A stretch of 64,000 bases of DNA. Source: a virus. A program made the position numbers and the translations under genes. This document shows positions 35,420-56,207 of this stretch, piece after piece. The stretch is taken from the IMG/VR virus record IMGVR_UViG_3300026484_000333, positions 1 to 64,000 of that record; one strand, 5' to 3'. The notes beneath the pieces were generated by a model. It was not told the origin of the DNA. It did not search any database and was given only the letters and a program-made list of their open reading frames with translations. How positions within the stretch are numbered: the stretch's first letter is position 1; each line of letters begins with the position of its first letter.

Positions 35420-35447
35420 AAAATCACTCATTAGAGTGAGTGATTTT
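35420..35447 (-). terminator. Intrinsic terminator after the major capsid gene
   Basis: AAAATCACTCA-ttagag-TGAGTGATTTT, followed by a T-rich run on the minus strand. Confidence 0.75.
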
Positions 35448-39080: not shown

Positions 39081-40439
39081 CTAAACTTTTAAGTCGGGAC
39101 TGCCCCCTAATGGGTCTGTACTTCCCATACTGCTTGGTTTATTGTTACTTTGGTTTTCAGAATTATTAGTATTATTTTCTGAATTATTTTGGCTCATTGC
39201 AACTAAATCTTGAAAGAATTGTGCTTCACTACCTGTTAAGAAGGCAGGTACAATATTCTTATCTGCACCTTCAAAATCCATTTCCGGTAAATCAACCAAA
39301 TCCCTTGCTTCATTTAATGTAGCAAGTCCTGTTGCAAACAATGTTCTTGCACTGTCAGCTTTTACATCTAAAGCAGTATCAAGTTCAGTAATTCTTCCAA
39401 AGTCAAATTCAAAATGATATTTTCCATAACCAAATTGTTTTCCTAAAAATAAATTAATTTGGTCTTGTATTCTATAAAGATAAGGTCTAACTGCGGTATT
39501 AAACACAACTTTCATTAATTCCTGTGGTTTTCCAGCACTGTTTGCCTCACCGCCTAAAACAAGTGCGTTTAGTTTGAAAACTCTTAAAACTCTTTTTTCA
39601 CTTATATTCATACTATCTAAAAGCATTGCGTCTTTAGGACTTGCTTGAACGGTTTTATAATCCATTTTGGCGGGTAAGACTGCTATACCTCTCCTCTCAC
39701 TACCGCCTTTTCCATATAAAGCGTTAAATTGTTCTCTCAATTCTTCAATTTGTTGTGGAGTTAAGGCATATTCGGCTTTTAAAATACCAGCTAAAATTAC
39801 ACTGCCCTCATAAAACTCTTGTAGGCTATCAATTGCATTTTTTTCCAACTTTAATGTATCAAGCAAAGGTGCTACGCTTGGTAGTCCATAATAAGCATTG
39901 TTTAGAGTTGGATTTATAATCCAAATAAGTTCGTTTTCTTTATAAGCAATCTTATCATTATAAATATAGCCTTTTATAAATTTAGTAGCGTCTGGAACAA
40001 CTTTAACATTATGAGGTTGAGTTAAAAACCAAGTTTCATAACTTCCTTTTACATTTTCAAAGGTTAAAGGGGCTACACCTGAAAGCAACAAACCTTGAAT
40101 TGCAAGTTCAATTGTTGTTCCCCAAGACCAAAATGGATTAGGTCTATATTCCCATTCTCTTAATTTTTTGTCTTTAACAGGAAGTTTTTTACCTGATTTA
40201 TCTAATTGATATAAGCGTGGAACTGCTTGTCCTCCTGCTTTAGCAATATAATCAACTGCACTAAAAACAAGTTCAGTTGTATGGAATGTATTTTCCATAG
40301 CACTTGTAGCTAATACACCGTTTCCATCTTTATAATCTTCAATGATTTTTTTGTTTGCTTTTGTAGCTTTAGTGTCCATATAAATTAACGTTTCTTTATT
40401 TTGTTGAGGCTGTTTTTTAAAAAAATCAAAAAAACCCAT
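39081..40439 (-). CDS. Portal protein, HK97-like
   Basis: PNPF, YYGLP, AGILK, TLNEARDL motifs. Confidence 0.92.
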   Translation of the reverse strand: MGFFDFFKKQPQQNKETLIYMDTKATKANKKIIEDYKDGNGVLATSAMENTFHTTELVFSAVDYIAKAGGQAVPRLYQLDKSGKKLPVKDKKLREWEYRPNPFWSWGTTIELAIQGLLLSGVAPLTFENVKGSYETWFLTQPHNVKVVPDATKFIKGYIYNDKIAYKENELIWIINPTLNNAYYGLPSVAPLLDTLKLEKNAIDSLQEFYEGSVILAGILKAEYALTPQQIEELREQFNALYGKGGSERRGIAVLPAKMDYKTVQASPKDAMLLDSMNISEKRVLRVFKLNALVLGGEANSAGKPQELMKVVFNTAVRPYLYRIQDQINLFLGKQFGYGKYHFEFDFGRITELDTALDVKADSARTLFATGLATLNEARDLVDLPEMDFEGADKNIVPAFLTGSEAQFFQDLVAMSQNNSENNTNNSENQSNNKPSSMGSTDPLGGSPDLKV

Positions 40440-40479
40440 TTGTTTTCCTTTTTAATTTATTATATAACATATATCAGCT

Positions 40480-40656
40480 TAAAGGAAAACAATAAAAACA
40501 AAGGAGAGAAAAATGAATAGATTGATTGAATTATGAGCTGGAAGCTCAATTGAAGTTTATACAGAAATAAACTTCAATTGAACGCCCATCTCAGGCGTTC
40601 TATATTTAACACCCACATCAGGTGTTATAAATTGAACGCCCACATCAGGCGTTCTA
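40480..40656 (-). ncRNA. Putative late structured small RNA
   Basis: Late promoter at 40660-40668 with no ORF behind it; three 27-nt-period hairpins with compensatory changes, then a 15-bp stem. Confidence 0.65.
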
Positions 40657-40672
40657 CTGTTATATCGGAAAA

Positions 40673-41722
40673 TCACACAAGTCTTGTTGAAATATAAACG
40701 CCTTTGTATGTTCTTTCACTTAAAGTTGCATTAGTAGTAAATAAAGGAAAATGTTTAATACTTACAGTTTCTTTGAAAAATTCACTGAAATAAACTTTTC
40801 CATCTGATGTTTCTTGTCTAAATCTAAATTTTAGTTGATTTACTCTTCCCCATTGTGGATTTGAACTTGAAAAGTCAAGTGATATTTTATTGCTTGTGAA
40901 TTTACCAATAGGATAATAGGTACTTCTTCTTGATTTTGACCTTCCTCCGGTATTTCCGTGATTATTAAAGTTGGTAACTTTATCATAGCCCCACATCTCA
41001 AGAACTAAATCTTCTGGGAAAGCTTGTCCAAAAACAAAACCGCCTACTGAAATTGTATTAAAAAATTTCTTGTTTAATTGCATAGTGTCAGTTCCGTTAA
41101 ACTGCCTATATGTTACCGTCCAATCCGTTGGGTCATCATTATTCATAACTGCACTTTCTAAATACATACTCTGCTTTGTATTATCCCATAAAGTAGTAGG
41201 TATCATAGCATTTCTTGCTTTTACTCTTGTACTACCTTCATATCTATCTAATCTTATATTATACATTCCACCGAATTTAATCGGCTCTTTATAAATAATT
41301 TTAATTGTTCCTGATGGATAGCCGTTAGGGAAACTAATATGCTGGGTGTAACCCGCAGGATTTGCAAATTGTATTCCAAATTCCCAATCATCAAACAACG
41401 TTTCATTGATATAGATTCTTACTAAATCTTTATTTGGAAAAATTAATTGTCTTAACCATAATAAGTTATGGGGTGAAATATTATCTGTATGTGAATACAT
41501 AATTATTTTTTCTTCTCTTATATTATTGCCTCCAAACGGAATTAAATATCCATTTGTAATTGCATCGTTTACATTGCTTGAAGCCACTGAATTATCCGCC
41601 ACAACATAATAACCATAATCACCTGAATCCACAATAACCAGCTGATTTAATTCATAATTTTTTAACATAATTGTGTCAGTTGTTTTTAACACAGGTATTT
41701 TATAATGTGTGTAAACTGCCAT
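40673..41722 (-). CDS. Virion fibre/decoration protein
   Basis: N-terminus similar to 52398-53960; remainder similar to the C-half of 41732-43603. Confidence 0.6.
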   Translation of the reverse strand: MAVYTHYKIPVLKTTDTIMLKNYELNQLVIVDSGDYGYYVVADNSVASSNVNDAITNGYLIPFGGNNIREEKIIMYSHTDNISPHNLLWLRQLIFPNKDLVRIYINETLFDDWEFGIQFANPAGYTQHISFPNGYPSGTIKIIYKEPIKFGGMYNIRLDRYEGSTRVKARNAMIPTTLWDNTKQSMYLESAVMNNDDPTDWTVTYRQFNGTDTMQLNKKFFNTISVGGFVFGQAFPEDLVLEMWGYDKVTNFNNHGNTGGRSKSRRSTYYPIGKFTSNKISLDFSSSNPQWGRVNQLKFRFRQETSDGKVYFSEFFKETVSIKHFPLFTTNATLSERTYKGVYISTRLV

Positions 41723-41731
41723 TTTTACTCC

Positions 41732-43603
41732 TTATATAAGTTTCATTAATTTGTAGTTTCCTACAAATTTGTTTTCATTATCTTCTGCATCTGTAGTAAA
41801 TATCGGAAAAGTCCTTATGCTAATAACCGTTGACAACCATTGACTAAAAAATACATTTCCTTCATCATCTTTTCTGCCTAGCCTAACATAATATAAACCA
41901 CAATCATATAAACCTGAAATTTTATTTTTTGTCATTTTTCCAATCGGAACTAAACGTCCTTGTGCTTCTTTATTTTTTGGAATATGCTTACTATTTGGAG
42001 ATTTAACATCAGACGCTCTCCATAGCTCAATCCAATAATTATCAGGTAATACTTCTTCTTTTGGAAATTCAGCTATATAACCAAAATTAGCACTTGCTTT
42101 TTCTACGTCTATTGTTATATTTGAATTATCCACACGCTTATAGTGGCACATATAACGTCCGAAATCCATATAATTATTTAATAAATCAACAGAATCCAAA
42201 TAGAATCTATTGCCCTGACTATCGGTGATAAATTTGGTAATTAATTTTGACCTTACCATTACATCAGTACTGCCTTCTTTTCTATATAAAACAATTTTAT
42301 AATCACCTAAAGCAATCGGCTCAACATATTCAATTTTGATAACATCATCGTCATTTAAACTTGTATTAAATTTCAAATGTGTTGTATAATCGCTGTTTAA
42401 ACTTTGGACTTGGTCGCCAAAATCCCAATCTGTATATTCAGCATCATTTACCCAAACTCTAAACAAATTCTTATCTTTATAAACATAGCGTTTTAAGAAC
42501 AACAAACTTTTACCTGAAATATTACTGCCTTTTCTATAAATAAAAACACGATTTAAACTGTCGGCAGTAGCATTAAAACTAAAAAGCTCTCCCGTACTAA
42601 TATCAACACCTATAACATAAGAATTTTCTGGTTTTTGTTTAGGTGTTTTTCCATAACTATAAAAAATAGGATTATCTTTTTTAAAATCAAATTTATCTTT
42701 AGTTACAGACATATAAGCTTCAATTGAGGCAAAATCATCACCTAATGCTACATCAAATTGTGCTGTATCTCCATAAGCACCGACTGCCAATTGCTTATCA
42801 CTAAAGTTACCGCCTTTTCCAGCCAAATAGGTTTGATAAAAACTTGAAGGATACATTGTTAGAAAGACTTGGTCTTTATATGGGTCAGTTGAAGTAGAGG
42901 CAGTAAAACTTGCCCCAGCATAATTATCAGAATTATTTGTATTTGTTACATTTACTTCAACAATTCCATATACATTTTTACTAATTTGAATTTTTTGAAC
43001 ATCGTTTGCAGTTTGGTCGCTTGGGGTTAAAGTTTTACCTATTCCTGTATCTGCATCTTCTTTTTGCCAATAGTTCTTTCCATCAATTATATCACACAAA
43101 TCTTTTGGCGTATATCTTCTAACTTCATTAACATCACAAGGGTGGGTTTTTTCTTCATCAGATATTTTATGAATATTAACTCCCAAATAAAACCAATTTG
43201 GATTGCCTTCTTCATCGCTTCTTGCTTCATACAAACCAGCTTTTTTTCTATTAAATAAAACCCAAGTTCCTGTTGCTTTTTGAACTAACCATTGTTCTCC
43301 AAGATGGTCGGCTGGGTCTGGTAAATCAGCATAAGTTTCAACTTCGCCTTCCCAACCGTCAAAATTAGAACTGCCTCCTCCTAAATTAACCTCAACCCAA
43401 TCAACAAGATTATCCTGTAATTGCCAAAATTTTTGGTCTTCTTGGTTATAAACAACCATTCCCGCTTTTCTTCTCAAATCAGGAATGTTATCACGCTCTT
43501 CAGTTGTGGCTACAACACGAAACCCGCCTTCTAAATGGATATCCTTAATTAAAGGAAAATCCCCATTAGGATAAAATAAACCCGTTATTTTTATACCAGC
43601 CAT
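41732..43603 (-). CDS. Virion fibre/decoration protein
   Basis: GGFRVVAT..RDNIP..RRKAGMVVY N-terminal module; C-domain paralogous to 40673-41722. Confidence 0.6.
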   Translation of the reverse strand: MAGIKITGLFYPNGDFPLIKDIHLEGGFRVVATTEERDNIPDLRRKAGMVVYNQEDQKFWQLQDNLVDWVEVNLGGGSSNFDGWEGEVETYADLPDPADHLGEQWLVQKATGTWVLFNRKKAGLYEARSDEEGNPNWFYLGVNIHKISDEEKTHPCDVNEVRRYTPKDLCDIIDGKNYWQKEDADTGIGKTLTPSDQTANDVQKIQISKNVYGIVEVNVTNTNNSDNYAGASFTASTSTDPYKDQVFLTMYPSSFYQTYLAGKGGNFSDKQLAVGAYGDTAQFDVALGDDFASIEAYMSVTKDKFDFKKDNPIFYSYGKTPKQKPENSYVIGVDISTGELFSFNATADSLNRVFIYRKGSNISGKSLLFLKRYVYKDKNLFRVWVNDAEYTDWDFGDQVQSLNSDYTTHLKFNTSLNDDDVIKIEYVEPIALGDYKIVLYRKEGSTDVMVRSKLITKFITDSQGNRFYLDSVDLLNNYMDFGRYMCHYKRVDNSNITIDVEKASANFGYIAEFPKEEVLPDNYWIELWRASDVKSPNSKHIPKNKEAQGRLVPIGKMTKNKISGLYDCGLYYVRLGRKDDEGNVFFSQWLSTVISIRTFPIFTTDAEDNENKFVGNYKLMKLI

Positions 43604-43674
43604 TATGCTACTCCTTCTAATTCCGCACGTTCTCTCACATTTCTTCTCTGTGCTAATACTCTTTTATTATTCAT
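43603..43674 (-). CDS. 23-aa coupled small ORF
   Basis: MNNKRVLAQRRNVRERAELEGVA; TAATG overlap with the next gene. Confidence 0.4.
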   Translation of the reverse strand: MNNKRVLAQRRNVRERAELEGVA

Positions 43675-43684
43675 CACAAACCCT

Positions 43685-44503
43685 TTAAGATAACTCTACA
43701 CAAGCACTGCCTGTTTGCTTGTAAGTAGTTCTTAATAATTTATAAGTTATAGTTGCACCATAAGAGTTAGTAACATCAATATCCCCGGCATAAGAAATAT
43801 CCCAACCAAAACCATTATCACAATCAACTGCTTGATTTACTTCTCCCCATTCAGTAGGATAAACAATATAATAATACAAACCTTCTCCGTTAGGGTTATC
43901 AAAACTATAATGTTCAGCATATCCACTTTTCAAAGCACTATTTTCAAGATTTTTAACTTCATTTTCCGTTAACGTATCATTCACTGAAGTTCCCCAATAA
44001 ACTCTTGCCCTCCAATAAACACGAAAATCACGGCTAAATGTTTGACCTTTTGTGTTAACTCCGCTAATTCGCCAAGTATAATAGCTGTTAATTCCGTTTG
44101 AAGTTTTATCACTGCCTATGTCCAAGTCTTCTTGTCCGTCATTAGCCAAGTTCTGTCCTAAAACTTGATTGGCATTCACATCTTTAATGCTAATTGAATT
44201 TTCCTGTATGTTTTCAGGACGGCTTGTAGTCCATTTGAGTGTTCTAACTCCTCCGCTTATAACTTGACCTACTTCTAACTGTGTTGCCTGTCCGTCAATA
44301 TAAAAACTTGTAAAAGCAGGATATTGATAAGGAAACAAAATCATTTTCAAAACATCACAAGGTTGCATTCCGTTGATGTCAGTTCCAGCTTCCAAACCTC
44401 CGTGCGTTTCAGGAACTGCATCTTCAGTTTGCATAACACAACCGCCAGACCCTCCACCAGCTCCTATGTCAGGATAAATCACAGAAAACTTATTATTTGC
44501 CAT
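43685..44503 (-). CDS. Virion structural protein (Ig-like)
   Basis: Own late promoter; beta-rich; between TerL and portal. Confidence 0.6.
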   Translation of the reverse strand: MANNKFSVIYPDIGAGGGSGGCVMQTEDAVPETHGGLEAGTDINGMQPCDVLKMILFPYQYPAFTSFYIDGQATQLEVGQVISGGVRTLKWTTSRPENIQENSISIKDVNANQVLGQNLANDGQEDLDIGSDKTSNGINSYYTWRISGVNTKGQTFSRDFRVYWRARVYWGTSVNDTLTENEVKNLENSALKSGYAEHYSFDNPNGEGLYYYIVYPTEWGEVNQAVDCDNGFGWDISYAGDIDVTNSYGATITYKLLRTTYKQTGSACVELS

Positions 44504-44541: not shown

Positions 44542-45900
44542 TTATACAACTTGGATTTGTAAATTTTGTAGCTTCCACCAACCGCTTGTCAAATAACGCA
44601 AGGCACCAACCGCCAAGTCAAAATGCCCGTCTTTGTTTCTTTCTATTGTTTTTCCGTTTCCATTTTCTTTCCAATGAGCCAATTTTAATTCTTCAATCAA
44701 CTGCATACAATTTTCTGATATGAACAATTTTCCTTTTTGAAATGCCGTATTAATATCACGTATGCTTTCTACTAATTGAATCGGTGCTGGTTGTGTATAA
44801 TAATTATGGCTATATGCCATATCAGCCATCGTCAAACTTGCACTCGGGTCACAAAACCTTACAATTTGCATATCAGGATTTTCACAATATCTTTGTTCTA
44901 TTTCCTTAAAATGTTTTAAATGCCATTCAATAGGCATTTGTCCAGCCATATATTCATCTAAAACATAAATATTGCCCGTCATCGGCTCAATCCAAGCTAT
45001 AACAAAGCTTGTATTATCTCTAAAACCGATATCAATTCCTACTGCAAACGTATCTTTTGTTGTCATTTTGTTTTTTAAATCATTAACTCTAAACACATTT
45101 TTTTCTAAATCAAAAGCATAAAATACTTGTAAATCCTCGCTAAATCCGCTCTGGAATTCACATAGATATTCCTGTTCAAAACTTCTTTTATCAAGTTTGG
45201 CTTTAATTGCCTCAATCATTTCTTTTGTTATCATAGGATTATCATAAACCGTAACTTTTTTACAAAAATAATCATCACGTTCTCCGCACCTTTTCCATAA
45301 TTTATAAAAATCATTGTCAAAAGTTCTTGGCGTTCCTATAAAATAAGTTTTGGAAAACATAAATCCGTTTTCATCAGTTCCATAATCGTTTTGTGCAGGT
45401 GAAATATAAGTTTCCCAAATTTCAAGAACATTATTTATACTTGCAGTTTCATCAAAAATAACCAAACTAAATTTATCACCAAGTGCATTTTCATAATTTT
45501 TCTCTGTAACCACACGAAATTTGGCACCATTTTCTAATGTAAATGTCAAGCCTTTCATATCTTTTGATTTAAAAGGCAACTGTAATTTATTTACATCTTT
45601 TTCAACATTACTAAAAATAGCTTGAGCATTTGCAAAAGTCGGCGTTACTAATAATATACTTGCATTCGGAATTAAAAGTTCTGACAATGCGATTTTTGAC
45701 ATAATTGTAGATTTACCAGCCCTTCTTGACATTAAGAAAACACCAACATTAAAATCCGCTTTTTGAATTCTGTCAATTATTTCTTGTTGATATTTTGTAG
45801 GTGTAAACTCTAACAATCTTAAAACTTTATTATAATCAATTTTTCTTTTTACTTTTTTATAAATTTCAATTTCTTGATTTACAGGTTTAAATTCAGACAT
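44542..45900 (-). CDS. terL: Terminase large subunit
   Basis: Walker A SRRAGKS, Walker B VIFDE, GTP coupling motif, nuclease GIDIG, DGHFD. Confidence 0.95.
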   Translation of the reverse strand: MSEFKPVNQEIEIYKKVKRKIDYNKVLRLLEFTPTKYQQEIIDRIQKADFNVGVFLMSRRAGKSTIMSKIALSELLIPNASILLVTPTFANAQAIFSNVEKDVNKLQLPFKSKDMKGLTFTLENGAKFRVVTEKNYENALGDKFSLVIFDETASINNVLEIWETYISPAQNDYGTDENGFMFSKTYFIGTPRTFDNDFYKLWKRCGERDDYFCKKVTVYDNPMITKEMIEAIKAKLDKRSFEQEYLCEFQSGFSEDLQVFYAFDLEKNVFRVNDLKNKMTTKDTFAVGIDIGFRDNTSFVIAWIEPMTGNIYVLDEYMAGQMPIEWHLKHFKEIEQRYCENPDMQIVRFCDPSASLTMADMAYSHNYYTQPAPIQLVESIRDINTAFQKGKLFISENCMQLIEELKLAHWKENGNGKTIERNKDGHFDLAVGALRYLTSGWWKLQNLQIQVV

Positions 45901-54338: not shown

Positions 54339-56207
54339 ATGAATAGAATGAATAAATTGATTGAATTAATCGAAAAAGAAAAAAAAGAAAGAAAAAAAAT
54401 TGAAAAAATTTTGATAAAAAGAAAAGATAAAAAAGTTGCAATCAAGCCAAACTCATTTAATGAATTAGCTCAATTGCTTAAAAATTATACAATAATTTTA
54501 TATCAAATGTCAAGAGTTTTATCAAATTTTTCTAACAAAAATTCAGGAATTCTTAACAATTTGTTATTTTTGTTAGAAAAATTTAACAATTCGTCAAGTT
54601 TTTATAGAAATTATAAACATTTTGTTATGGCAATAATCGAAGGAAAAATCGAGCCACAATTTGTTGCCCAAAATTTCGCTCAATTTTATATTGCCCTTAC
54701 TTCAACGCATTTTGAAACCAAAGGTTTGAGCTTTGTTGCAAATCCTTATCAAGCTACGCAAATTGATAAAGCAAGACCGAATACAAAATATGGAAAATTC
54801 AGCTATATTAGAAAACAGGGATATGAGCAGAATTTAGGTCTGACTTTTGACAGTGAAAGCTATGATGTTGTTGAATATTTTAAAATGATAACAAATGACA
54901 AATGTGCGTTTTTTACACCAAACAACAAATATTCTAAAAATTCATTAAGATTTGATGTTGATGATAAAACTTTGAATATGGATGAAATGGAAATTTTGAT
55001 TAGAACTGCGATGGACAAATTGAACATAAACGGTGAAGTCGAAATCGTCGAAACAACGAAAGGTTGGCAGTTTGCTGTTTATGTTCCGTTGTTTTTCGTT
55101 AAAACTTTTTATGATAAAAATGATTATGTTGTTGAGCAGATTTTCGTTAGTGATAGAAAAACAACAAAAGCATTTAAGGCATATCAAAAATTCAACGAAA
55201 AATTTGTTGAGATTTTAGAAAATTTGGCGGTTGAGCTTTTTAATGTCAAATTAGAAATTGACAAATTTGCAGTAGAACAAGAAAAAGTTAGAATTTGGAG
55301 AAATGCAAAAGCCCACAATCATCGCTATTTTTCGGTGGTTGAAAACGAAAAATCAACGATTTTAGAAATGATTGATTTGCCAAAATTAGAACAAAAAGAA
55401 AATTTTGTCAATCATTTTGAAGCCAAAAAAGCAAATGAAATTGAACTCCGCAACAAAATGCCGAATGTTTATAAGTTCTTTAAAAAACACAACTTTTCAA
55501 TGCCGAAAATCAAATGCGGATTGATTGGCAAAATGAGCGAAAATACCGAAAGTTTTTATCTTACAAAAGCAATTGTTCACAAATTTATAATTGATTATAA
55601 TCATTTAGAAAATTTTGATGTTTTGTTGTTGGATTTGGCAGAAATGATAGAACTTGATTTTAGGAATATTTATCAAGAAGAAAAATCAATTGAAAATATA
55701 AATGTTGTGATTGATTATTATTTAGAAAATTTTGATGTTTATTTAACCGCCCAGAAAACCGCAAGAAGCCGAATGTTTGTTAAAAGTGCGAAAGCACTTG
55801 ATAACATAAGAAAAAATAGAAATAATTTAGATGAAATGAAACAAAAAATTGAAAAAAGCAAAAATGAACTTGAAAAATTTAAAAATAACGATGAAAATAA
55901 ATTGTCAATTAGGAAAATGTCCGAAGAATTGAAGAAAATTGCTTTTGATTTGCCAAAATCAACGCTTTATGAATATATCAAAAAAGAAAATGTTGATATT
56001 TTAGTTGAAATGATTGAAATGTTGTATAGATATGTTATAATTTTAATGAACGGCAGTGAAAAAGAACAGCAAAAAGCAATTCAATTGTTCGAAATTATCG
56101 AACAGTTACAAGGTGCGGTCAATTATGTTATAGCTATGATGAAGTTTGATTTGGTTGAAAATGAAAAATTACGAAAATTTTTTTATGTTGAAAAACGGAA
56201 GGAATAA
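54339..56207 (+). CDS. Putative replication protein, AEP/primase-polymerase-like with C-terminal HTH
   Basis: LRFDVDD (DxD), IVETTKGWQ (motif II-like, with Q for H), LSIRKMSEEL..LPKSTLYEY HTH. Confidence 0.55.
   Translation: MNRMNKLIELIEKEKKERKKIEKILIKRKDKKVAIKPNSFNELAQLLKNYTIILYQMSRVLSNFSNKNSGILNNLLFLLEKFNNSSSFYRNYKHFVMAIIEGKIEPQFVAQNFAQFYIALTSTHFETKGLSFVANPYQATQIDKARPNTKYGKFSYIRKQGYEQNLGLTFDSESYDVVEYFKMITNDKCAFFTPNNKYSKNSLRFDVDDKTLNMDEMEILIRTAMDKLNINGEVEIVETTKGWQFAVYVPLFFVKTFYDKNDYVVEQIFVSDRKTTKAFKAYQKFNEKFVEILENLAVELFNVKLEIDKFAVEQEKVRIWRNAKAHNHRYFSVVENEKSTILEMIDLPKLEQKENFVNHFEAKKANEIELRNKMPNVYKFFKKHNFSMPKIKCGLIGKMSENTESFYLTKAIVHKFIIDYNHLENFDVLLLDLAEMIELDFRNIYQEEKSIENINVVIDYYLENFDVYLTAQKTARSRMFVKSAKALDNIRKNRNNLDEMKQKIEKSKNELEKFKNNDENKLSIRKMSEELKKIAFDLPKSTLYEYIKKENVDILVEMIEMLYRYVIILMNGSEKEQQKAIQLFEIIEQLQGAVNYVIAMMKFDLVENEKLRKFFYVEKRKE

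What the first reader, a model, noticed from the sequence alone, without database searches (positions are those of the whole stretch)
40546..40668. Late-expressed structured RNA with three covarying tandem hairpins, upstream of the portal gene
Seen: a copy of the late promoter (40660-40668, minus strand) has no ORF behind it, and the portal gene has its own copy at 40469. The transcript would open with three hairpins at exactly 27-nt period: GAACGCC-UGAUGUG-GGCGUUC, UAACACC-UGAUGUG-GGUGUUA and GAACGCC-UGAGAUG-GGCGUUC. Stem substitutions are compensatory and the loop is conserved. A perfect 15-bp stem follows (40546-40581). Inference: a multivalent protein-binding sRNA, such as a sponge, antitoxin or anti-defence decoy, RNP scaffold, or packaging-associated RNA.
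Basis: partly seen in the sequence, partly recalled or inferred. Interest (0 to 1): 0.82.

Follow-up and report, generated by a model that had tools for sequence, protein, structure and literature searches.

The report
Three-hairpin leader before phage portal gene
Three closely related uncultured phages carry three near-identical hairpins and a long stem behind a late promoter, just ahead of the portal gene; the element is real and conserved, probably acts as RNA, matches no catalogued RNA family, and its job is unknown.

Summary
At 40546-40668 (gene-sense = minus strand) a CCGATATAA promoter-type motif is followed 5 nt later by three 27-nt units. Each unit is a 7-bp stem with a 7-nt loop. A perfect 15-bp stem follows.

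Only two related phage genomes carry the same array, in the same place. In the three-genome alignment 102 of 102 pair cells are paired and 6 pairs changed on both sides. The array is 83-93% identical, against 38-65% for the spacer after it. It is absent from 22 more distant loci and from 5 whole relative records, where the promoter motif sits 31-57 nt before the portal start. So the array looks like a clade-specific insertion into the portal leader.

Three things favour gene-sense RNA: G.U pairs, invariant UG..UG loop flanks, and consistently lower sense-strand folding energies. It is not coding, not a canonical terminator, and matches no Rfam family.

Function is untested. My best guess (0.4) is a late non-coding RNA whose three sequence-constrained hairpins dock a protein. 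Rivals are a passive RNA stability or processing structure and a DNA-level site. No transcript data exist.

The scan noted this same stretch once more in an overlapping window (e1-6135516), not on other DNA.

The parts
40660..40668 (-). CCGATATAA late-promoter-type motif, 4 nt after the orf349 stop and 5 nt before hairpin 1
   Evidence: 7 copies against 0.37 expected, all on the minus strand. Five of the other six lie 18-33 nt upstream of ATG plus RBS of protease, capsid, tube and others. TTTCCGATATAA is conserved in L004 and L005. A CGATWWW motif lies upstream of the portal in 20 of 22 related loci.
40634..40654 (-). Hairpin 1: GAACGCC / UGAUGUG / GGCGUUC
   Evidence: Pair 5 is G-C here and A-U in L004 and L005. 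RNA fold -12.8 kcal/mol sense against -10.8 antisense.
40607..40627 (-). Hairpin 2: UAACACC / UGAUGUG / GGUGUUA. It is the weaker middle unit in all three genomes.
   Evidence: The closing pair is U-A here and in L005, and A-U in L004. Fold -9.0 sense against -7.3 antisense.
40580..40600 (-). Hairpin 3: GAACGCC / UGAGAUG / GGCGUUC
   Evidence: Pair 5 is G-C here and in L004, and A-U in L005. Its last 2 nt are shared with the long stem.
40546..40581 (-). Perfect 15-bp stem with a 6-nt loop and no U-tract after it
   Evidence: Of the 13 pairs counted, 3 changed on both sides and 2 cells in L004 are G.U, which pair only on the gene-sense strand. L004 stem energy is -17.6 sense against -9.3 antisense. 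The sense strand is not flagged as a terminator, whereas a canonical terminator follows the capsid gene at 35447-35420.
40478..40545 (-). Poorly conserved U/C-rich tail of the leader. It holds the anti-Shine-Dalgarno arm 40492-40481, which pairs with the portal ribosome site at 40451-40440.
   Evidence: 12-nt perfect inverted repeat I8. The pairing appears in the MFE folds of all three genomes. Identity to relatives is 0.38-0.65.
40470..40477 (-). Second promoter-type motif, CTGATATA, lying between the two arms of the RBS-masking repeat, 30 nt before the portal ATG (40439)
   Evidence: Conserved as CTGATATAT in L004 and L005.

Best explanation
The element is a clade-specific, roughly 190-nt insertion into the 5' leader of the portal gene. 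It sits behind what was the ancestral portal late promoter.

Inferred mechanism:
- Late in infection the CCGATATAA promoter starts a non-coding, gene-sense RNA at about 40654-40656, the first base of hairpin 1.
- Its 5' part folds into three equivalent hairpins at an exact 27-nt pitch. Each has 7 Watson-Crick pairs, probably extended by a tandem U.G/G.U, and is capped by an R-N-R triloop. A 13-15-bp stem follows.
- Almost every base of the hairpins is fixed, not only the pairing. The number, order and spacing of the units are also fixed. I therefore read the three hairpins as three docking sites for one RNA-binding protein or oligomer, of phage or host, which is unidentified. They would incidentally shield the 5' end.
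- The RNA then runs into a U/C-rich tail that masks the portal ribosome site. Portal would then be translated only from the second promoter (CTGATATA, 40477).

Shown: the structure, its conservation, the strand asymmetry, the absence of coding, the promoter-motif statistics, and the insertion history.

Inferred: transcription, the 5' end, protein binding and any downstream effect.
For: Structure and conservation:
- The structure is real and far beyond chance.
- It is conserved in both close relatives: 102 of 102 cells paired and 6 pairs changed on both sides. Slid-partner controls give 30-53% paired and 0 two-sided changes.
- Nine units: 72 of 72 cells paired including the two wobble pairs; covariation score 0.254 against 0.086 shuffled, with 0 of 500 shuffles as high.
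- Three two-sided changes in the long stem, and the hp2 U-A to A-U change, have no donor copy. Gene conversion therefore cannot explain them.

Primary-sequence constraint:
- The array is 0.83-0.93 identical to the relatives. The orf349 body is 0.50-0.67 (L004) and the following spacer 0.38-0.65.
- 18 of 27 unit columns are invariant in 9 of 9 units.

Strand evidence:
- Two G.U cells in the L004 long stem.
- The sense fold is more stable than antisense in 9 of 9 hairpins (mean -11.0 against -9.1 kcal/mol). The L004 long stem is -17.6 against -9.3.
- The invariant UG..UG can pair only in the sense RNA.

Promoter:
- CCGATATAA 7 against 0.37 expected, all on the gene strand, before capsid, protease and tube.
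- Its spacing to hp1 is conserved.

Insertion history:
- In distant relatives a CGATWWW motif lies 31-57 nt before the portal ATG. In L004 and L005 it lies at -206 and -225.

Portal ribosome site masked in long transcripts in all three genomes.
Against: - There are no expression data of any kind. The promoter is a motif inference and the 5' end is a guess.
- No binding protein was identified. Pfam on 58 non-structural ORFs gave replication and nucleotide-metabolism families and no RNA-binding family among the 25 of 38 families that were displayed. The three upstream ORFs have no Pfam, NCBIfam or PADLOC match.
- Only three very close genomes carry the array, so high sequence identity may partly reflect short divergence time. 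Three sequences are too few for a statistical covariation test.
- Some A-U/G-C switches at pair 5 could be copied between units by gene conversion.
- The antisense strand also folds strongly (-62.2 kcal/mol, z -7.4, against -68.0, z -7.6).
- No 3' end is defined. The long stem has no U-tract.
Confidence: 0.4

Rival explanations
1. A passive RNA structure with no dedicated binding protein. The hairpin block would be a decay barrier or processing signal at the junction between the accessory fibre-like cassette (orf272-orf623-orf349) and the head genes. It would protect the 3' end of upstream mRNA from 3' exonucleases, give promoter-40668 transcripts a 5'-terminal stem-loop, or offer the long stem to a double-strand RNase.
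For: - The block starts 19 nt after the orf349 stop, and the predicted start site coincides with the first base of hp1.
- The distal part of the long stem is conserved only in pairing.
- The block is by far the most stable local structure of the genome.
- That 5'-terminal stem-loops and 3' hairpins stabilise bacterial mRNAs is established knowledge, recalled and not tested here.
Against: - A pure stability element should tolerate sequence drift. Here 5 of 7 stem pairs, both wobble pairs, the unit number, the order and the 27-nt pitch are invariant across 9 units, while the adjacent spacer has fallen to 38-65% identity.
- It is not a canonical terminator on the sense strand, although this phage does use one after the capsid gene.
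- A conserved strong-type promoter motif sits between the stop codon and the hairpins. That is unnecessary for a 3' barrier.
Confidence: 0.25
2. A DNA-level site. The three palindromes would be bound as double-stranded or extruded DNA. Candidates are the small terminase (a pac or cosB-like site between terL and portal), a transcription factor acting on the two promoters, or a recombination or replication protein.
For: - The array lies between terL (44542-45900, PF03237) and portal.
- Three repeated sites recall the three R sites of lambda cosB (recalled).
- The contig's 127-bp terminal repeat is the size of an assembly overlap, so the true ends are unknown and a pac site here is not excluded.
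- Palindromes also fold on the other strand.
Against: - Strand asymmetry. The inner two positions of each half-site are TG on both sides, not TG..CA, in 9 of 9 units, which is odd for a symmetric dimer site.
- Two G.U positions in L004 would be C.A mismatches in a cruciform or on the other strand.
- Stem positions 1 and 5 change on both sides together, so pairing rather than base identity is kept there.
- The 27-bp pitch puts successive sites on opposite faces of B-DNA (inference).
- All 22 more distant loci and 5 whole relative records lack the array, though they share portal and terL.
Confidence: 0.15
3. A specific anti-defence RNA mimic. It would either copy a type III antitoxin (like pseudo-ToxI of phage PhiTE) or a CRISPR repeat (Racr), and so soak up a host endoribonuclease. 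This is a special case of the protein-docking reading.
For: - The architecture (promoter, then 2.9 tandem repeats, then a palindrome) is that of a type III antitoxin locus (PMC3401426, passages).
- Phages do carry such mimics (PMC3475682, passages).
- The 27-nt unit length is close to short CRISPR repeats (recalled).
Against: - The 27-nt unit is below the 31-62 nt range of the three type III families.
- The units are plain hairpins, whereas ToxI-type antitoxins are pseudoknots.
- No tandem copy in one genome of each of 185,579 species. No array in 37 genomes of the phylum of the only MAG that carries a related portal.
- No Rfam match at E up to 10. That Rfam holds ToxI and CRISPR-DR families is my recollection.
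- The promoter is of the late structural-gene type, whereas counter-defence is usually needed early (inference).
- The host is unknown, so the defining test of similarity to a host RNA could not be run.
Confidence: 0.1
4. It encodes a small repeat protein. The candidates are the sense 39-aa ORF (9-aa repeat RTPDVGVQF) or the antisense 39-55-aa ORF.
For: - 27 nt is 9 codons.
- The sense ORF is open in the window (39 aa, GTG) and in L005 (40 aa, TTG). Window-to-L005 differences are synonymous or conservative in that frame (read).
- An antisense frame is open in all three genomes.
Against: - In L004 the compensatory A-to-T change in hp2 creates an in-frame TGA, and no ORF spans the units.
- The start codons differ (GTG, TTG, none) and no ribosome site precedes them.
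- The antisense ORF has no ribosome site, its start and tail are not conserved (39, 52 and 55 aa), and the paired changes are non-synonymous in it (Ala/Thr, Arg/Cys).
Confidence: 0.03
5. A functionless remnant: a slippage-generated palindromic repeat or a small selfish insertion that has not yet decayed.
For: - It is restricted to three very close genomes.
- It arose as an insertion into the portal leader.
Against: - It is more conserved than both flanks.
- Six two-sided changes keep the pairing, and 102 of 102 cells are paired.
- Unit-specific identities (the weak middle hairpin) are kept across genomes, so the three-unit array predates their split.
- There is a single copy per genome, unlike mobile palindromes.
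Confidence: 0.05

Closest known systems
Type III toxin-antitoxin antitoxin arrays (ToxI, CptI, TenpI) and the pseudo-ToxI mimic of phage PhiTE
   Same: A promoter, then about 3 short tandem direct repeats, then a palindrome. The RNA repeats each bind one protein subunit, and phages can carry toxin-less copies (PMC3401426 and PMC3475682, passages read).
   Different: - The units are 27 nt against 31-62 nt.
- They are simple hairpins, not pseudoknots.
- There is no toxin gene: the portal follows.
- The palindrome lacks a U-tract.
- No host counterpart was found.
- The promoter is of the late type.
RNA anti-CRISPRs (Racr) / viral solitary repeat units
   Same: A small hairpin-bearing non-coding unit directly behind a promoter in a phage genome, with no cas genes nearby. 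It acts by occupying an RNA-binding protein (PMC10651486, passages read).
   Different: - Racrs are defined by similarity to a CRISPR repeat. None could be shown here.
- Here there are three contiguous units without spacers, and a late-type promoter.
CsrB / RsmX-Y-Z protein-sequestering RNAs
   Same: Many near-identical hairpins in one RNA, giving multivalent binding of one protein (recalled).
   Different: - Their defining GGA loop motif is absent from all 9 loops.
- They are host genes with a terminator.
- No Rfam hit.
Lambda nut (boxB) and HK022 put leader RNAs
   Same: Hairpins with purine-rich loops in a leader RNA just behind a phage promoter and ahead of a stem (recalled).
   Different: - No boxA and no N-like protein was identified.
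- The stem after the array is not a canonical terminator.
- Downstream late genes have their own promoters, so antitermination is not obviously needed.
T4 genes e, soc, 49 and I-TevI: ribosome site masked in long transcripts, freed in transcripts from a nearer late promoter
   Same: The portal ribosome site pairs with an upstream arm, and the nearer promoter lies between the two arms.
   Different: That mechanism explains the tail of the leader, not the three hairpins. No known example carries a tandem hairpin array at the 5' end.

Membership tests
Type III TA antitoxin / phage antitoxin mimic | Tandem direct nucleotide repeats behind a promoter | tested here: met
   27 nt x 2.9 copies. CCGATATAA lies 5 nt upstream. 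The promoter is a motif inference.
Type III TA antitoxin / phage antitoxin mimic | Repeat length within the ranges of the three families (31-62, 40-48, 39-57 nt) | tested here: not met
   27 nt against Table 2 of PMC3401426.
Type III TA antitoxin / phage antitoxin mimic | Palindromic terminator, then a ToxN/CptN/TenpN-type toxin gene downstream. For a mimic: similarity to a host antitoxin. | tested here: not met
   A palindrome is present but has no U-tract. The downstream gene is the portal, PF04860. There is no tandem copy in genome contigs. The host is unknown, so mimicry itself is not testable.
Racr / solitary CRISPR repeat unit | Sequence and structure similarity to a CRISPR repeat of a host system | tested here: inconclusive
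   No Rfam match at E up to 10. The host is unknown.
Racr / solitary CRISPR repeat unit | Promoter within 250 bp upstream and no cas genes adjacent | tested here: met
   Promoter motif 5 nt upstream. The neighbours are a fibre-like ORF and the portal.
CsrB/Rsm-type sponge RNA | Repeated GGA motifs in hairpin loops | tested here: not met
   The loops are UG-RNR-UG. No GGA in 9 of 9.
Intrinsic (Rho-independent) terminator | G+C-rich stem directly followed by a U-tract on the transcribed strand | tested here: not met
   The scan flags none of the four stems on the minus strand. It flags only hp3 on the plus strand. A canonical terminator follows the capsid gene at 35447-35420.
Terminase recognition site (pac / cosB-like) | Repeated sites bound by the small terminase next to the packaging genes, with genome ends generated nearby | not testable with these tools
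   The position between terL and portal fits. The ends are unknown because the terminal repeat is 127 bp, an assembly overlap. No terS was identified. Strand asymmetry argues against this reading.
Any Rfam 15 family | Covariance-model score at or above the gathering threshold | tested here: not met
   0 matches at gathering over the whole window. The best sub-threshold hit around the array has E 0.17 and is a plant miRNA model.

The most novel reading that the evidence does not exclude
A previously undescribed kind of phage late non-coding RNA. A strong structural-gene promoter drives an RNA whose 5' end is a fixed trio of sequence-specific hairpins. These titrate or recruit a host or phage RNA-binding protein, for example an RNase or a defence nuclease. 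Its tail carries anti-ribosome-site sequence. Together they would form a two-module RNA that reprogrammes RNA fate late in infection.
Probability: 0.25. Interest if true: 0.7.

Novelty: new variant of a known kind. Interest (0 to 1): 0.45.

Why it matters
If it is transcribed and protein-bound, this would be a compact, natural three-site RNA docking module in a phage of an uncultured hydrothermal-type host. The host attribution comes only from earlier scan notes and one MAG title. It would add to the short list of phage non-coding RNAs that act by binding proteins, namely pseudo-ToxI and Racr. It also gives a dated example of how a structured RNA is inserted into the leader of an essential head gene while a second promoter is acquired to keep that gene translated. 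If it is only a stability or processing structure, it is an ordinary though unusually neat element.

Tried and rejected
Searches that found no further copy or relative:
- Exact hp1 21-mer in IMG/VR: 0.
- Single-hairpin pattern in IMG/VR: 88 stretches. Only the two relatives' contigs have 3 tandem copies. The other 86 are single hits with unrelated flanks, many with a G.U at pair 5. One recurrent unrelated hairpin appears in about 10 contigs. This also tested the idea, taken from earlier notes, that the hairpins copy a hairpin inside some other phage's gene. No such source was found.
- Two-hairpin pattern in metagenome contigs: only the same two contigs. In genome contigs: 0.
- blastn of 40300-41000 against 50,697 GenBank phages: no match.
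- Rfam: nothing. tRNA or tmRNA: 0.
- Covariance model R1 built from the 9 units. Only the 9 training hairpins scored (42.8-48.1 bits), and the next best was 17.2 bits. 0 of 5 whole distant-relative records matched.
- 37 genomes of the phylum of the only MAG hit: 7 single matches, each with one mismatch, and no array.

Upstream ORFs:
- orf349 has only 3 sequences in 5.8 billion and no Atlas neighbour. Its one PDB hit has E 0.044.
- The AlphaFold2 model has mean pLDDT 43.3, so I did not run a fold search on it.
- PADLOC, NCBIfam and Pfam gave nothing for the three upstream ORFs.

Readings rejected:
- Coding readings.
- Nested alternative fold (5' arm of hp1 with 3' arm of hp3). It is predicted where hp1 and hp3 share a stem sequence. 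In L004 that pairing would have an A.C mismatch, and the three local hairpins are the MFE.
- PeSL-like recombination cassette (recalled from T4-type phages). There is only one copy per genome.

Host identification failed:
- The listing of cluster members gave no useful names.
- One 5.2-kb MAG contig titled Desulfurellales was the only genome-contig hit.

Supplementary tables of the papers were closed. Table S1 of the Racr paper and the type III locus lists might hold a similar repeat.
Full report
WHAT IS THERE

The window is bases 1-64000 of an 83,931-bp IMG/VR virus record at about 27% G+C. Its 127-bp terminal repeat is the size of an assembly overlap, so the record is probably a circular assembly and its true ends are unknown.

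All head and tail genes run on the minus strand. In reading order the local genes are:
- terL, 44542-45900 (PF03237).
- orf272, orf623 and orf349, with no family hit.
- A 233-nt gap.
- Portal, 39081-40439 (PF04860).
- A protease fusion and the capsid gene.

Read on the minus strand, the gap holds, in order:
- The orf349 stop.
- CCGATATAA at 40668-40660.
- Five bases, then three 27-nt units, each a 7-bp stem with a 7-nt loop (40654-40580).
- A perfect 15-bp stem (40581-40546), which borrows the last two bases of hairpin 3.
- A U/C-rich stretch.
- CTGATATA at 40477-40470.
- The portal ribosome site and ATG at 40439.

IS IT MORE THAN CHANCE

Yes.
- Repeat finders report 3 copies at spacing 27, 27 and period 27 with 2.9 copies.
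- The stem pattern occurs 4 times against 0.13 expected, and 0 of 100 shuffles reach 4.
- The whole genome holds only 4 perfect G+C-rich stems of at least 7 bp. Two of them are here, and shuffles average 0.85.
- The 221-nt leader folds at -68.0 kcal/mol, z -7.6.

IS THE PROMOTER CALL REASONABLE

- CYGATATA occurs 16 times against 2.7 expected, 14 of them on the gene strand.
- The CCGATATAA form occurs 7 times against 0.37 expected, all on the gene strand.
- Five of the other six CCGATATAA copies lie 18-33 nt before the ATG and ribosome site of protease, capsid, tail tube and two further ORFs. One is inside an ORF.
- A CGATWWW motif lies within 250 nt upstream of the portal match start in 20 of 22 related loci, against a background of 0.18 per 260 nt.

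It is still only a motif; no transcript has been seen. An earlier scan note (e1-6135518) likens it to a sigma-28 -10 box. I did not test that.

RELATIVES

Close relatives:
- A portal search in IMG/VR found two close relatives, L004 (88% portal identity) and L005 (94%).
- Both carry the promoter motif, three hairpins at the same pitch and the long stem in the same place.
- Each of the three genomes has exactly one array.

No other copy anywhere:
- IMG/VR: 88 stretches match a single-hairpin pattern, and only these two contigs hold tandem copies.
- Metagenome contigs: only the same two contigs.
- One genome for each of 185,579 species: none.
- GenBank phages: none.
- Rfam: none.

More distant relatives:
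- 22 loci with 41-59% portal identity were fetched.
- A covariance model of the hairpin hits nothing in them (best 17.2 bits, against 42.8-48.1 for the nine training hairpins).
- It also hits nothing in 5 whole relative records.
- In those relatives terL either directly precedes the portal (9 loci) or diverges from it (8 loci).
- None has homologues of orf272, orf623 or orf349 within 4 kb.
- Their CGATWWW motif sits 31-57 nt before the portal ATG. In L004 and L005 it sits at -206 and -225.

I infer that the hairpin block, its tail and the second promoter were inserted between the ancestral portal promoter and the portal ribosome site in the common ancestor of the three genomes.

The portal homologues at 62-72% identity, which could date this event, exist.

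CONSERVATION AND COVARIATION

- In the three-genome alignment all 102 cells of 34 pairs are standard pairs and six pairs changed on both sides. Sliding the partners gives 30-53% paired and no two-sided change.
- Across the nine units, 72 of 72 cells pair, including a U.G and a G.U that extend each stem to 9 bp. 0 of 500 shuffles reach the covariation score.
- A caveat: switches between G-C and A-U at pair 5 could be copied between units by gene conversion.
- Three two-sided changes in the long stem, and the U-A to A-U change in hairpin 2 of L004, have no donor copy. They are genuine compensations.
- The array is 0.83-0.93 identical to the relatives. The body of orf349 is 0.50-0.67 (L004) and the spacer after the long stem is 0.38-0.65.
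- 18 of 27 unit positions are invariant in all nine units. Free variation is essentially confined to the middle of the loop, the spacers and the two covarying pairs.
- The middle hairpin is the weak one in every genome, so the trio predates the split.

RNA OR DNA, AND WHICH STRAND

Three observations point to gene-sense RNA:
- The L004 long stem holds two G.U pairs. On the other strand, or in DNA, these would be C.A mismatches. Its energy is -17.6 kcal/mol sense against -9.3 antisense.
- All nine hairpins are about 2 kcal/mol more stable as sense RNA.
- The invariant loop flanks are UG..UG. They are a direct rather than an inverted repeat, they pair only in sense RNA, and they make each site asymmetric. 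A symmetric DNA-binding dimer gives no reason to conserve that.

This evidence is suggestive, not decisive. The antisense strand also folds well.

NOT CODING, NOT A TERMINATOR

- 27 nt is 9 codons. A sense ORF with a 9-aa repeat is open in the window and in L005. In L004 the compensatory change in hairpin 2 creates an in-frame stop, and no ORF spans the units. The starts differ and there is no ribosome site.
- An antisense frame is open in all three genomes. It lacks a ribosome site and a conserved start or end, and the paired changes are non-synonymous in it.
- None of the four stems is followed by a U-tract on the sense strand. The phage does have a textbook terminator after its capsid gene.

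SURROUNDINGS

- A perfect 12-nt arm (40492-40481) pairs with the portal ribosome site (40451-40440). The CTGATATA motif lies between the arms.
- The pairing appears in the predicted folds of all three genomes. RNA that starts at, or reads through, the array would therefore not translate portal efficiently. RNA from the nearer promoter would.
- orf349 is a paralogue of the C-terminal half of orf623 (29-31% identity, E 1e-28 to 1e-30).
- The first 80 residues of orf623 recur at the N-termini of hundreds of proteins of very different lengths. Some of these carry DUF285, PKD or DUF2793 domains. I read the cassette as fast-evolving fibre- or adhesin-like structural genes, not RNA-binding proteins.
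- An AlphaFold2 model of orf349 was unusable (pLDDT 43.3).
- Pfam on 58 non-structural ORFs showed a replisome and nucleotide-metabolism enzymes, and no RNA-binding family among the 25 of 38 families displayed.

MECHANISM

I commit, at 0.4, to the following: a late, gene-sense, non-coding RNA whose three sequence-constrained hairpins are three equivalent docking sites for one RNA-binding protein or oligomer. A structure-only long stem and an anti-ribosome-site tail follow.

The argument for specific recognition rather than mere stability is the invariance of base identity, unit number, order and pitch next to a rapidly drifting spacer.

The rivals are:
- A passive stability or processing structure (0.25).
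- A DNA site such as a terminase recognition site (0.15).
- A specific mimic of a host antitoxin or CRISPR repeat (0.1), which is a special case of docking.
- A neutral remnant (0.05).
- A small protein (0.03).

COMPARISON WITH KNOWN SYSTEMS

- Type III antitoxin loci and their phage mimics are closest in architecture. They have a promoter, about 3 tandem repeats and a palindrome. But the 27-nt unit is below the reported 31-62 nt, no toxin follows, and the units are plain hairpins (passages of PMC3401426 and PMC3475682).
- Racr solitary repeat units share the hairpin directly behind a promoter. They are defined by similarity to a CRISPR repeat, which I could not test because the host is unknown (passages of PMC10651486).
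- Csr/Rsm sponges require GGA loops, which are absent.
- I file the element under none of these.

VERDICT

Its RNA nature is likely, and its function is open. It is a new variant of the known kind 'phage structured non-coding RNA or leader'. It is confined to three genomes, and no expression evidence exists. Interest 0.45.

Noticed in passing
window 10111-54216 (motif copies listed): There are two forms of the promoter-type motif. CCGATATAA (7 copies, all minus strand) precedes protease, capsid, tail tube and the hairpin array. CTGATATA precedes terL, orf272, portal, the tape-measure region and, on the plus strand, the 622-aa gene at 54339. The second form fits an extended -10 (TGnTATA). They may be two temporal or strength classes.
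   Followed up: partly
window 40673-44503 (orf349, orf623, orf272): A three-gene cassette between terL and portal is found only in the window's genome, L004 and L005. orf349 is a paralogue of the C-terminal half of orf623. The first 80 residues of orf623 are a widespread N-terminal module of proteins 90 to over 2000 aa long, some with DUF285, PKD or DUF2793 domains. The genes are probably fibre- or adhesin-like and fast-evolving (orf349 is 59% identical in L004, against 88% for portal).
   Followed up: partly
window 40440-40492: A perfect 12-nt inverted repeat pairs the portal ribosome site with an upstream arm, and the CTGATATA motif lies between the arms. The pairing is predicted in all three genomes.
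   Followed up: partly
window 35420-35447 (minus strand): A canonical intrinsic terminator (11-bp stem plus T-run) lies directly after the capsid gene. This shows that the phage or host does use U-tract terminators.
   Followed up: no
genome 46208-82900 (58 ORFs scanned together): The phage encodes its own replisome and nucleotide-metabolism set: family A DNA polymerase, DnaB-like helicase, Toprim primase, ATP-dependent ligase, ThyX, dCMP deaminase and dNMP kinase. It also encodes a GGDEF diguanylate-cyclase domain protein and a PAPS-reductase-like protein. Which ORF carries which domain was not resolved.
   Followed up: no
L018, L034, L049, L051, L056, L068, L078, L079, L093 (IMG/VR contigs): An unrelated longer hairpin with identical flanks recurs in about 10 contigs of 32-34% G+C. 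It matched my single-hairpin pattern by chance and looks like a conserved terminator-like hairpin of another phage group.
   Followed up: no
L105-L107, L110-L113, L116, 100-300 nt upstream of portal: In the relatives where terL diverges from portal, the shared intergenic region carries repeated GGACAC-containing blocks. L113 has a direct repeat of about 45 nt. These resemble the dispersed CGGACA elements that earlier notes report in the window's genome.
   Followed up: no
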